From the NCBI GenBank assembly GCA_037379345.1, contig CM074516.1, positions 18,910,001-18,974,000 on the forward strand: a stretch of DNA of 64,000 bases. The letters run 5' to 3'. The position numbers were made by a program. The stretch is from Perna viridis (lineage: Eukaryota). Of this stretch, positions 42,401 through 45,400 are shown piece by piece (within the stretch, counting starts at the first letter, position 1; each line of letters begins with the position of its first letter).

Positions 42401-45400
42401 AAACATGCAAAATTGATCCTGATGAACTGAAATGGTCAAGAGAAAAGATATGTGATCAACATATGGATTATCCACAGTAAGTGAAACTTTTCTTTTCTTT
42501 TTATAAGAAAATAAAGAAAACAAAATCTAAAACATAAGAAAATAAAAGAAAAAAAAATAACAAACTATAAACAAATAATCGAATACAAATAATCCAACAA
42601 AGACCAAAAAATACTTTAAGCAATATATCGTCATAACGACATACACAAGAGAAAAGGCTATTTCCATTTCTAATGTCATTTACTTCTATTTCTCGCAGTG
42701 ATACAATAGAAAAGGCGTTACGGAATGATAAAAAGATGTTGGACTTTGTTGAAAATGCTTCAGAATTCTACAATCCAGATTATTCTTACAGTAACACAGA
42801 GTGAGTATTATGAAAATAAGTTTATAAGACTGATGTGTAATAATTTCATATAACTTAAACTATTTCTTGCAGACATCGTTTAAATATGTATCTTAAACGT
42901 GCCCTAAGTACTTTCTTAATCTGAACAAATTTTCGTTGTTTCCATTTCTTGTCATTTTTCGTTTTAAGACCCGACACGAAAATGACATCAGTTTCATTTT
43001 AACTCCTGAAAATAGGAATAAAAAGCTTATAGCAAACTTACATTTTCTTATATGATTTTTAATTTTGTCTCATTTGAAAGACATTATATCTTACACCATA
43101 CAAAGTATTTTTTACTTAGAAATAGTAAAAAATAAATAAATTGCTAATTAATATAAAATAAATCTTAAGGTATATGACGAATTTCAGAACTTGTGATGCC
43201 TACCTAGGAACAGAACAAGATTTCGTACAAAAGAAGGTTGAATGTGGAAATATCTGCCCCGGTAGAAATGTAAATCTGACCACAGTCTGGTACGAATATG
43301 AAAACAGCCGTACTATGTGTAAAGTAATTCGTCCATGGCAACAAATTGTTTCCTACACCGAGTGCAAGTAAGTGCAGTGGTTTTGTTTGGTTCAGACATT
43401 ACATTTAATTGTGCCTACTTGATGTTTTACTAATTTTCATATAAAAATGATGCAATAACCGTTATGGTACTGTACATGAATTTATGTTTTGATTCGTCGC
43501 TTTTATATTAATATAGATTATGTATTAACCAAGGTAGATATATTTGAATTAATTTAATTTAAATATAACTGAGCACATTTTTTGAACGTCGGATTGATGG
43601 TTCCGGTATTCCATTTTGCGATTTGGAAATCTAACCAATCCGAACCATACATAAACGGGACACTTTATGATAATATTGTTATCTAAAGTCTTTTTAAAGT
43701 AACTACTGATGATGTAAAACCTGCCTAATCCGAAAACATATTAATGAATTTAATTTTCATTTCTTTGTATTTTTTTTTTATTTTAGTGAAAAAACTCCGA
43801 ACGTACCAAGAATGGATAAATCGTTCCGATGTCTACCAGAGAACCCTCTGAGAAGGAAAATTGCAGTCTACTGTCCAGATATCATCCCTCAGTGTAAATT
43901 GATGGAAATTGAACTTCCACAACATTGTGCCGCCAGTCAACTCAAATGTATAAAGAAGAAAGAAACCAAAATGGCCATACTTGATTCACTTTTTGCTAAT
44001 TGGGGTAGTAGTTTCTTTTAAATTTTAAAGTATCGTATTAGTATTTGCTGTTGATCTTTGTTGAAGATTTTGTTTAGTGAACAAATTTACAGGTATCAAT
44101 TTTCACGGTTACCGAAATTGATAAACGTATATATTGTGAACTACCAGTTTCGAAGGTACCACCGCAAAAATAGCGAAAGTTGGTACACCGCGAAAATTAA
44201 TACATTGAAATATTATTATTGCACAAGAATTCAGCAATATTTTTTACGAAAGAAAAATGAAAAATGTAAAATCAAACGTTTGTTATGTTATCACAAGTTA
44301 TGATTAATTTTCCAAAATGACATTTTAACTTTTGAACTAAATCAACAGCAATTGAAACAATGTTAAAAATCTTCAGTTCTAATTTCAAATGTTAAATATA
44401 GAAAAGATATAATCCGAAGTTTCCTTGATACAATTAATGTCTCCAGCTTCAATTACAGTCATGGTATAAAGTGTCTAGTAAGAGAAGTGAGTTAAAGAGG
44501 AAGGAAGTTTCAATCATTGTGAAAATATGGGAGAAATGAAATCTATGAACTGTTGTACTGTGATATGATGTATTTGTGTATGCGTAAAACAGAAAGTGGT
44601 TTAAAAGTGCAATATTATGTCTTCTGTGTTGATGTTATTTATTTTGTATGCTCATTCATTATCATCATTGACTTGCCTTTTCCTGATTATTAAAATGATT
44701 TCTTCTAATTAATCTTGTGTATTTAACTATCGACTGTAAAATCGAGAGAAAAATTTTCCCTTGAAAAAAAAAGCAAACAAACAAGCACAAACAAACAAAC
44801 ATAAAAAAAAACGGAAAAATAAAATTTACAACAACAAAAACAAAATCAACAAAATAACAACAAAAGGAAGACAAAGACAACACAGAATCATTGGAATATA
44901 AAGTAGTGTCATATCTACAAATAAACACTGAAAATCTGGGTTTTTCTCGATTAAGAATTCAAAAATATGATTAAAAAAATAAATATTTCTACAAAAAACG
45001 TTAGTCGAAATTTGGTTTTATACTCTTATCATTAAAGGTAAGCCCTAATTACGTCTATTTCGGCTGACACCTTAGTCATTACAAGAATGTTGATATTATT
45101 GTAAATTGATTATGCGACTTTAACTAGGATGCTGAATATAACCATAGACTGATATAAAATTGTTATTCAATTTTATTTAGACTTTCATATTTAAGCTTTA
45201 AAAATAATCATATAAGAGTTTCATGTAAATATGTGCATTAATTTTCTATTCGAGTTTAACATGAGTAGGAAAATCAGCCGTAGACATTGGAATAGCAATT
45301 GAAAAAATTAAGATATTAAAATATATTCCATTCCATTAGTCATGTTTCAATTCGATGTACCCGTCTTGGTGGTTCCAGGGCAGCATGCTTGTCAGGAGTG

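What the first reader, a model, noticed from the sequence alone, without database searches (positions are those of the whole stretch)
43188..44021. B proteins show compensated loss of one knot disulfide (CysIII-CysVI): a 'broken' cystine knot
Known: NGF/Spaetzle knots pair I-IV, II-V and III-VI, with V and VI in a terminal CxC. Seen: A has PVC(I), TEC(II), QRC(III), YYC(IV) and CSC(V,VI). All four complete B genes lack any Cys between TEC and FRC and have CAA in place of CSC, so exactly the predicted III and VI partners are lost together. This covariation supports the fold assignment. B also has an extra conserved Cys (QC in PQC/SQC). Inference: B cannot close the knot ring and may depend on A, or on a new disulfide, for stability.
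Basis: partly seen in the sequence, partly recalled or inferred. Interest (0 to 1): 0.72.

Follow-up and report, generated by a model that had tools for sequence, protein, structure and literature searches.

The report
Cystine-knot paralogue missing one knot disulfide
An invertebrate-like gene cluster holds repeated head-to-head pairs of secreted cystine-knot-type genes, and one partner of each pair has lost two cysteines that normally bond to each other, a kind of loss already described in invertebrate IL-17 cytokines.

Summary
43188-44021 covers the last two coding exons of B3, one of four complete B genes (a fifth is cut by the window end). Each B sits head-to-head with an A gene (five A genes). 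All 5 A copies have a Cys between the TEC-type Cys and the YYC-type Cys, and a terminal CSC. All 4 B copies lack the first and read CAA for CSC. B is not decaying: dN/dS is about 0.2, all 10 Cys are invariant and splice sites are intact.

The two missing Cys are the canonical III-VI partners. However, all B copies descend from one ancestor, so this is one event, not repeated covariation. Whether the surviving Cys is V or VI depends on where a 2-residue gap is placed. The fold rests on leads only: sub-threshold Pfam DAN, ESM Atlas look-alikes, and Foldseek hits that are nearly all cystine-knot proteins but none significant. Spaetzle/NGF membership is not shown. The domain has 9 (A) or 10 (B) Cys, not 6.

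Loss of the 3/6 disulfide is already described for invertebrate IL-17 ("T1C", PMC11087794). Connectivity and dependence of B on A remain untested. Interest is low to moderate.

The parts
43188..43367 (+). B3 coding exon 4 (first exon of the knot domain). Cys codons: 43192-43194 (B-only), 43243-43245 (I), 43255-43257 (B-only), 43318-43320 (shared extra), 43363-43365 (II, TEC). It ends two bases into a split codon.
43787..44021 (+). B3 coding exon 5 (second exon of the knot domain, with stop). Cys codons: 43830-43832 (IV, FRC), 43872-43874 (shared extra, VYC), 43893-43895 (B-only, PQC), 43926-43928 (V), 43947-43949 (shared last Cys). Ala at position VI: 43932-43934. There is no Cys before FRC. 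The tail has a basic run and a predicted helix.
42071..42800 (+). B3 upstream coding exons. The ATG-only exon is 42071-42073, with a TATA-like box about 70 nt upstream. The signal-peptide and N-module exon is 42346-42477. A third exon runs about 42697-42800; its acceptor was not fixed.
52818..54779 (+). B4, a near-identical copy of B3 with the same Cys pattern (CAA, no Cys III).
24088..31085 (+). B2, an older copy (dS about 1.0 to B3) with the same Cys pattern.
11876..14014 (+). B1, the oldest copy, with the same Cys pattern. Its ATG exon was not located.
63499..64000 (+). B5: only the ATG exon and the signal-peptide exon (63778-63909) lie inside the window. Its knot exons lie outside.
38940..40714 (-). 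A2, head-to-head partner of B3 (ATG to ATG 1357 bp). Three coding exons. All of Cys I-VI plus three more Cys in the last two exons.
50393..51998 (-). A3, partner of B4. Exon 1 is 51763-51998, exon 2 is 50926-51075, exon 3 is 50393-50585. This copy was the query for the fold and family searches.
60280..62127 (-). A4, partner of B5.
18373..23005 (-). A1, partner of B2 (ATG to ATG 1083 bp).
7396..10814 (-). A0, the most diverged A copy and partner of B1. It keeps Cys III and CSC.

Best explanation
A and B are paralogous secreted proteins whose last two exons encode a growth-factor-type cystine-knot domain. They are arranged as head-to-head pairs that were duplicated as units.

A carries the full set of six knot Cys. 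It also has a Cys pair placed like the finger-to-finger bridge of DAN-type proteins, and one Cys four residues after CxC.

In the ancestor of all B genes the loop between Cys II and Cys IV was shortened by about 11 residues, which removed Cys III. Position VI became Ala. This deleted one of the two ring-forming disulfides, so B has no closed ring and no true knot.

The B fold is then held by I-IV, II-V and the shared extra pair. B also gained three new invariant Cys. The total stays at 12 Cys after the signal peptide in both proteins, so one new disulfide probably replaces the lost one.

B remains a working gene under purifying selection. The case parallels the invertebrate IL-17 type that lost the 3/6 bond.

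Shown: the Cys pattern, the gene structures, the pairing of the genes and the selection. Inferred: the fold, the connectivity, the replacement disulfide and the ligand role.
For: - Cys columns are all-or-none by family: III and VI are 5/5 in A and 0/4 in B; seven columns are 9/9; three are B-only at 4/4.
- A-B homology around Cys IV to the next Cys: hhalign E 3.8e-6, probability 87% over 24 columns; tblastn E 0.004-0.02. Both families have a phase-2 intron just after Cys II.
- Fold leads for A exon 3: Pfam DAN at E 0.005, 17.3 bits against a cut-off of 22, in 3 of 9 pieces. ESM Atlas nearest clusters are Cys_knot/DAN/glycoprotein-hormone beta at 0.89 with 188 shared features. The AF2 model has a long hairpin with pLDDT 78-91. 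In its Foldseek list, 38 of the 39 rows shown are named cystine-knot proteins (IL-17A, VWF CTCK probability 0.93, FSH beta, VEGF, sclerostin, gremlin, PRDC, norrin, Spz1C), though 0 have E<=0.001.
- A exon 2 is nearest to Spaetzle/NGF clusters in the ESM Atlas (0.85).
- Canonical pairing is 1-4, 2-5, 3-6, with the ring made of 2-5 and 3-6 (PMC3224965, PMC3328748, passages).
- Precedent: IL-17 types T1C (lost 3/6), T1B and T2 (PMC11087794, passages).
- VEGF disulfide mutants keep the fold (PMC3328748, passage).
- Selection: B2-B3 dN/dS 0.20 at dS 1.0; A1-A2 0.23. dN runs in parallel in the two families: A0-A1 0.42 and B1-B2 0.42; A1-A2 0.20 and B2-B3 0.21.
- 10 of 10 B Cys are invariant against 49 of 126 other positions.
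Against: - No search reaches significance for any cystine-knot family. Pfam gave no Spaetzle, NGF, IL17 or Cys_knot hit for any exon piece. PDB sequence profiles gave only chance hits.
- The first knot exons of A and B are not significantly alike (hhalign E 0.063).
- The B exon 5 model is poor (pLDDT 63). Only 5 of its 46 listed Foldseek rows are cystine-knot proteins, and all have E>1.
- 14 residues between II and III (11 in A0) fits none of the 8-10-residue ring classes.
- The V or VI identity of the surviving Cys depends on gap placement.
- The AF2 runs used my own 9-row alignments, so they are not independent of them.
- The whole spliced domain was never searched or folded.
Confidence: 0.6

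Rival explanations
1. B is the obligate partner of A. The co-duplicated head-to-head pairs encode the two chains of a heterodimeric ligand. The open ring of B is tolerated because A stabilises it, through the shared Cys after CxC or the B-only Cys in interchain bonds.
For: - There are five A/B pairs, with 0.8-1.4 kb between start codons in the four pairs where both ATGs were found.
- dN runs in parallel in A and B, which points to duplication as units.
- One Cys after CxC is conserved in all 9 copies. An odd Cys in such domains is usually taken as interchain (PMC3224965, passage).
- GPA2/GPB5 genes are almost always close together and form heterodimers, as do the bursicon subunits in some insects (PMC4079206, passage).
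Against: - Both proteins have an even total of 12 Cys, so no Cys need be free.
- Gene adjacency alone is weak evidence.
- There are no expression data.
- Tandem paralogues often stay adjacent without binding each other.
Confidence: 0.2
2. The alignment is off by two. B keeps Cys VI and lost Cys V as well as III, so the survivors II and VI form a non-canonical bond. The loss is then not of a canonical pair.
For: The spacing from the VYC/VHC Cys to the surviving Cys (17 residues) equals A's spacing to VI with no gap. The V reading needs a 2-residue gap in the hairpin loop.
Against: - The sum-of-pairs BLOSUM62 score favours the V reading: 25.95 against at most 16.8, or 0.55 against -5.8 without the Cys columns.
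- The spacing to the last shared Cys (6) matches V with no gap.
- V and VI lie on the same face two residues apart, so the outcome is the same either way: one ring bond is gone.
Confidence: 0.12
3. The domain is not a cystine knot. A and B belong to an unrelated Cys-rich secreted family, and the I-VI labels are a coincidence of spacing.
For: No family or structure match is significant. ESM Atlas scores are below 0.9 and recognition values are below the tool's mark.
Against: Three independent kinds of lead all point to the same superfamily. A has a terminal CxC and a long hairpin between IV and V.
Confidence: 0.06
4. The B genes are decaying copies, and the missing Cys are simply damage.
For: None beyond the loss itself.
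Against: - dN/dS is 0.20 at dS about 1.
- Frames are open, splice sites are canonical, and a signal peptide and TATA-like box are present in the copies examined.
- All 10 Cys are invariant.
Confidence: 0.02

Closest known systems
Invertebrate IL-17 ligands of type T1C (and T1B, T2, T3) as classified in PMC11087794
   Same: A cystine-knot cytokine paralogue derived from a complete knot by losing exactly one disulfide. T1C lost 3/6, and the remaining two bonds still tie the four strands. Such genes occur in expanded, tandemly arranged families in marine invertebrates (PMC4517768, PMC8353272, passages).
   Different: - No Pfam IL17 hit for any exon piece.
- A lacks the CPW/SPW motif. B has PW, but five residues after the Cys.
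- The II-III spacing is much longer than I recall for IL-17.
- Foldseek hits to IL-17A reach only E 0.18.
- The paper's supplementary alignment of T1C members could not be seen.
DAN / sclerostin / CTCK / glycoprotein-hormone beta group (8-residue-ring cystine knots)
   Same: - This is the best Pfam lead (DAN), the best ESM Atlas lead, and the highest Foldseek probabilities (VWF CTCK 0.92-0.93) for A exon 3.
- A has an extra Cys pair placed in loop 1 and loop 3, like the I-III bridge of DAN, GPA2 and GPB5 (PMC3224965).
- A has a further Cys shortly after CxC.
   Different: - There is no CxGxC. The ring segment between II and III has 11-14 residues and no conserved Gly at the ring position.
- The Pfam score is below the cut-off.
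- The first half looks Spaetzle/NGF-like instead.
Spaetzle / neurotrophin (NGF) family
   Same: - ESM Atlas look-alikes of A exon 2.
- The ring is larger than 8 residues.
- A is a secreted precursor with an N-terminal region before the knot.
- Spz1C appears at Foldseek rank 49.
   Different: - No Pfam Spaetzle or NGF hit.
- A has 9 Cys rather than 7 (Spaetzle, PMC8637286) or 6 (NGF, PMC4079206).
- I saw no obvious processing site before the knot (by eye only).
GPA2/GPB5 and bursicon alpha/beta
   Same: Two diverged cystine-knot paralogues encoded by neighbouring genes that form a heterodimer (PMC4079206).
   Different: Those subunits all keep the six knot Cys. Heterodimerisation of A and B is not shown here.
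Engineered VEGF-A disulfide mutants
   Same: Removal of single knot disulfides leaves the fold essentially intact (PMC3328748, passage citing Muller et al. 2002). One such mutant structure is among the Foldseek hits (1mjv).
   Different: Those are laboratory mutants of a different subfamily.

Membership tests
Growth-factor cystine-knot superfamily (protein A) | Six Cys in the order I..VI with a terminal CxC, compatible with 1-4, 2-5 and 3-6 | tested here: met
   5/5 A copies. Spacing: I-x36..47-II (with one extra Cys between), II-x11/14-III, III-x11-IV, IV-x29-V (with one extra Cys), V-x-VI (plus split codons). This tests the pattern only.
Growth-factor cystine-knot superfamily (protein A) | The 1-4 bond threads a ring closed by 2-5 and 3-6 | not testable with these tools
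   The structure tool returns no coordinates, and the spliced domain was not joined. The exon 3 model shows only the IV-to-V hairpin.
Growth-factor cystine-knot superfamily (protein B) | All six knot Cys present | tested here: not met
   0/4 B copies have Cys III or Cys VI. B would have the fold without the knot.
Spaetzle (Pfam PF16077) | Match to the family model | tested here: not met
   No hit at E<=10 for any of the exon pieces scanned. Caveat: only half-domains were scanned. The ESM Atlas lead is 0.85.
Spaetzle | Seven Cys: three intrachain bonds plus one dimer Cys (PMC8637286) | tested here: not met
   A has 9 and B has 10 Cys in the knot exons.
NGF / neurotrophin (Pfam PF00243) | Match to the model; only the six knot Cys (PMC4079206) | tested here: not met
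   No Pfam hit. There are three further conserved Cys.
DAN / CTCK / glycoprotein-hormone type (8-residue ring) | CxGxC ring segment with conserved Gly (PMC3224965) | tested here: not met
   11-14 residues lie between II and III in A.
DAN (Pfam PF03045) | Score at or above the gathering cut-off | tested here: not met
   17.3 bits against a cut-off of 22. E 0.005 in 3 of 9 pieces, which are the three near-identical A copies.
DAN / GPA2 / GPB5 type | Extra disulfide linking loop 1 and loop 3 | tested here: inconclusive
   One conserved Cys lies in each of these loops in 9/9 copies. Their pairing was not tested.
IL-17 (Pfam PF06083) | Match to the model; CPW/SPW motif (PMC8353272) | tested here: not met
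   No Pfam hit. A reads VCQV at the corresponding Cys. B has RPW, but not next to a Cys. The Foldseek top hit to IL-17A has E 0.18.
IL-17 structural type T1C (PMC11087794) | Knot lacking only the 3/6 bond | tested here: inconclusive
   The Cys pattern of B fits. Membership of the IL-17 family is not shown, and the paper's supplementary alignment was not seen.

The most novel reading that the evidence does not exclude
The five co-duplicated head-to-head A/B pairs encode a two-chain cystine-knot ligand of a family not covered by current models. One chain (B) has given up a ring disulfide and is held together by its partner through new interchain bonds. This would be a natural 'half-knotted' heterodimer, analogous in gene layout to thyrostimulin or bursicon but built on a Spaetzle/IL-17-like scaffold.
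Probability: 0.15. Interest if true: 0.6.

Novelty: new member of a known kind. Interest (0 to 1): 0.3.

Why it matters
It would add a second, apparently non-IL-17 example in which a cystine-knot signalling protein stays under selection after losing a ring-forming disulfide. That would show that the knot itself is dispensable for the fold. The strict A/B gene pairing gives a testable lead to a possible heterodimeric ligand in an invertebrate.

As it stands, this is an ordinary case of cysteine-pattern drift between paralogues of a fast-evolving secreted family.

Tried and rejected
- Complex prediction of the A exon 3 piece with the B exon 5 piece as two separate chains gave 'no answer' (score 0.01, mark 0.34, controls not run). 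It is not evidence either way, and half-domains were a poor test.
- PDB sequence-profile searches with mixed A+B and A-only exon alignments returned only chance hits with E>0.1: HPRT, complement-control modules, flagellin.
- Pfam on A exon 1, B exons 2-3, A0 and B1 pieces found nothing relevant.
- The Foldseek list for the B exon 5 model is noise apart from 5 cystine-knot rows of 46, all with E>1.
- A shared N-terminal motif between A exon 1 and B exon 2 is not significant (BLASTP E 0.088 over 8 residues).
- Four short peptide motifs from A and B were not found in any paper of the library.
- No tRNA genes were found.
- The pseudogene reading was rejected on selection and intact signals.
- Plain IL-17, Spaetzle, NGF or DAN membership was rejected or left open, as set out in the membership table.

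Not done:
- The spliced A and B proteins were never joined. Whole-domain family search, whole-domain folding and disulfide geometry were therefore left out.
- Orthologues in other species could not be sought.
- The organism was not identified.
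Full report
WHAT IS THERE

The window is AT-rich (29-37% GC per 2-kb bin), has no N and carries spliced genes, so it is eukaryotic and looks invertebrate. It does not look human. The organism was not identified.

The interval 43188-44021 covers two exons, 43188-43367 and 43787-44021, on the + strand. They have canonical splice signals and a stop at 44019-44021. tblastn of their translations against the window finds four complete copies on the + strand, which I call the B genes. 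It also finds a weaker set on the - strand, the A genes.

Pattern searches and reading of the flanks give five A genes: A0 7396-10814, A1 18373-23005, A2 38940-40714, A3 50393-51998 and A4 60280-62127. Each has three coding exons. They give four complete B genes, ending at 14014, 31085, 44021 and 54779, plus the start of a fifth at 63499.

A B gene has at least five coding exons:
- a first coding exon that holds only the ATG, about 70 nt downstream of a TATA-like box;
- a signal-peptide exon;
- a short exon;
- the two exons of the finding.

The signal peptides were judged by eye; no predictor was run.

Every A lies head-to-head with a B. The start codons are 1083, 1357, 820 and 1372 bp apart in the four pairs where both ATGs were located. 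The three youngest pairs sit in a 10.7-kb tandem unit that is 87-96% identical between copies.

THE OBSERVATION

All alignments were made exon by exon. The spliced proteins were never joined, so no whole-domain search or fold was run.

In the last exon, all 5 A copies have a Cys 11 residues before the YYC-type Cys and a terminal C-S-C. All 4 B copies have neither. The stretch before F[RQ]C holds no Cys, and the motif reads C-A-A.

Seven Cys columns are shared by all nine copies.

Adding the exon-wise counts and one split codon gives these spacings:
- Cys II to Cys IV: 23-26 residues in A and 14-15 in B.
- Cys III was therefore lost with a loop deletion of about 11 residues.
- Position VI was replaced by Ala, codon GCT or GCC.

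IS B A LIVE GENE?

Yes. The evidence:
- B2 against B3: dN 0.206, dS 1.03, ratio 0.20 over 135 codons.
- A1 against A2: ratio 0.23.
- B1 against the other B copies: synonymous sites are saturated.
- dN runs in parallel in the two families: A0-A1 0.42 and B1-B2 0.42; A1-A2 0.20 and B2-B3 0.21.

The parallel dN, together with the layout, indicates that the pairs were duplicated as units.

In B, all 10 Cys are invariant against 49 of 126 other positions. Splice sites and reading frames are intact.

WHAT FOLD?

No match is significant on its own. All tests were on half-domains.

- Pfam gives only DAN, below its cut-off (17.3 against 22 bits, E 0.005). The hit is on exon 3 of the three near-identical A copies, so 3 of 9 pieces. 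Nothing was found for the first knot exon, for any B piece, or for the N-terminal exons.
- PDB sequence profiles give chance hits only.
- ESM Atlas look-alikes of A exon 3 are Cys_knot/DAN/glycoprotein-hormone beta clusters (0.89, 188 shared features), then partner of bursicon, IL-17 and Spaetzle.
- ESM Atlas look-alikes of A exon 2 are Spaetzle and NGF clusters (0.85, 154 shared; recognition is low, so this is a lead only).
- An AF2 model of A exon 3, built from my 9-row alignment, has mean pLDDT 70.8. It shows one long hairpin from Cys IV to CxC with pLDDT 78-91.
- Foldseek on that model against the PDB finds 0 matches with E<=0.001. Even so, 38 of the 39 rows listed are named cystine-knot proteins. 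IL-17A is first (E 0.18). The highest probabilities are for the VWF CTCK domain (0.92-0.93, TM 0.42-0.47). FSH beta, VEGF, sclerostin, gremlin, PRDC, norrin and Spz1C are also listed.
- The model of B exon 5 is weaker (pLDDT 63), with a shorter hairpin and a C-terminal helix. Its Foldseek list is noise, with 5 cystine-knot rows of 46 and all E>1.

B's fold therefore rests on its homology to A. That homology is solid around Cys IV and the next Cys (hhalign E 3.8e-6, probability 87%, 24 columns). It is not significant in the first knot exon (E 0.063). There the support is the Cys spacing and a phase-2 intron at the same place, just after Cys II.

My reading is a growth-factor-type cystine-knot domain of no assignable subfamily. 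The first half leans to Spaetzle/NGF and the second half to DAN/CTCK/IL-17.

DOES THE PAIRED LOSS SUPPORT III-VI PAIRING?

Growth-factor knots always pair 1-4, 2-5 and 3-6. The ring is made by 2-5 and 3-6 (PMC3224965 and PMC3328748, passages read). The six knot Cys are described as invariant across the superfamily (PMC4079206, passage).

The labels III and VI in A do not depend on which upstream Cys is called I, so the assignment is robust to the choice of subfamily. B thus lacks a canonical pair and cannot close the ring.

Three cautions apply:
1. All B copies descend from one ancestor, so this is a single event. Two Cys lost at random from nine would be partners 4 times in 36 (my arithmetic).
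2. Whether B's surviving Cys is V or VI depends on where a 2-residue gap goes. Placing the gap in the hairpin loop (V kept) scores 25.95. The best placement that keeps VI scores 16.8. Without the Cys columns the scores are 0.55 and -5.8. V is favoured but not proven. Either way one ring bond is gone.
3. The connectivity itself could not be tested. The structure tool gives no coordinates and the domain was not joined.

COMPENSATION

After the predicted signal peptides, A has 3 + 9 Cys and B has 2 + 10 Cys, so 12 each. B lost three Cys relative to A (one N-terminal, III and VI) and gained three. This parity fits a replacement disulfide, but it is inference only.

One Cys after CxC is shared by all nine copies. 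In families with an odd Cys, such a residue is usually taken as interchain (PMC3224965, passage). The idea that B depends on A fits the strict gene pairing. It also fits the precedent of neighbouring genes for heterodimeric cystine-knot hormones (PMC4079206, passage). It remains untested.

COMPARISON WITH WHAT IS KNOWN

A 2024 survey classifies invertebrate IL-17 knots into five types (PMC11087794, passages read; its supplement was not seen):
- T1A: complete.
- T1B: lost 2/5.
- T1C: lost 3/6.
- T2: lost 1/4.
- T3: lacks Cys 5 and 6.

The survey notes that in T1B and T1C the remaining two bonds still tie the four strands.

Earlier papers describe two related cases. One is the Cys-to-Ser pair in chordate IL-17. 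The other is mussel IL-17 forms with only four conserved Cys (PMC4517768 and PMC8353272, passages). One silkmoth Spaetzle is reported with only two conserved Cys (PMC8637286, passage citing Sun et al. 2016). Engineered VEGF mutants without single knot bonds keep the fold (PMC3328748, passage).

Paired loss of the 3/6 bond in a cystine-knot cytokine paralogue is therefore a known kind of event. What may be new is its occurrence in a family that meets the tests for none of IL-17, Spaetzle, NGF or DAN, and the fixed A/B head-to-head pairing. I could not check whether this family is already annotated or has orthologues. A text search for four of its motifs found no paper.

VERDICT

The finding is a new member of a known kind, and interest is about 0.3. 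The boldest reading still open is an A/B heterodimer in which A props up the unknotted B; I put it at about 0.15.

Noticed in passing
window 38622-49445, 50025-59903, 59902-64000: A tandem unit of about 10.7 kb, each copy carrying one A and one B gene, repeated about 2.4 times at 87-96% identity. Older, more diverged pairs lie at 7.4-14.0 kb and 18.4-31.1 kb.
   Followed up: partly
window 63499-63909: Start of a fifth B gene (ATG exon and signal-peptide exon), cut off by the window end. Its knot exons, and so its Cys pattern, cannot be seen.
   Followed up: partly
window 58611-59018 (+): A 135-codon open frame that looks like the tail of a retroelement protein. Pfam DUF6451 scores 27.9 bits against a cut-off of 28. 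It lies in an insertion of about 460 bp that is present in the second tandem unit and absent from the first (compare 48631 with 58619-59079).
   Followed up: partly
window 24397-24630, 27777-28119, 28781-28994, 46238-46574, 57121-57457: A dispersed repeat of about 220-340 bp, 75-88% identical, found in both orientations. It is probably a short mobile element.
   Followed up: no
window 43950-44018 and the same part of B1, B2, B4: B proteins end in a basic run followed by a conserved tail that is predicted helical (residues 61-70 of the exon 5 model). A has nothing like it. It could be a membrane- or matrix-binding tail or a cleaved peptide.
   Followed up: no
window 43273-43281 and the same site in B1, B2, B4: An N-L-T glycosylation sequon is invariant in the first finger of all four B copies. 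It is absent from A1-A4; A0 has N-K-T nearby.
   Followed up: no
window 42071-42073, 24088-24090, 52818-52820, 63499-63501: In four B genes the first coding exon contributes only the ATG, followed at once by GTAAGT. A conserved TATA-like box lies about 70 nt upstream.
   Followed up: partly
A exon 1 (e.g. 51765-51998, -) and B exon 2 (e.g. 42346-42477, +): The regions before the knot share a loose C..W..C-D...D-Y pattern, which hints that the whole precursors are paralogous. The pairwise match is not significant (E 0.088 over 8 residues).
   Followed up: yes
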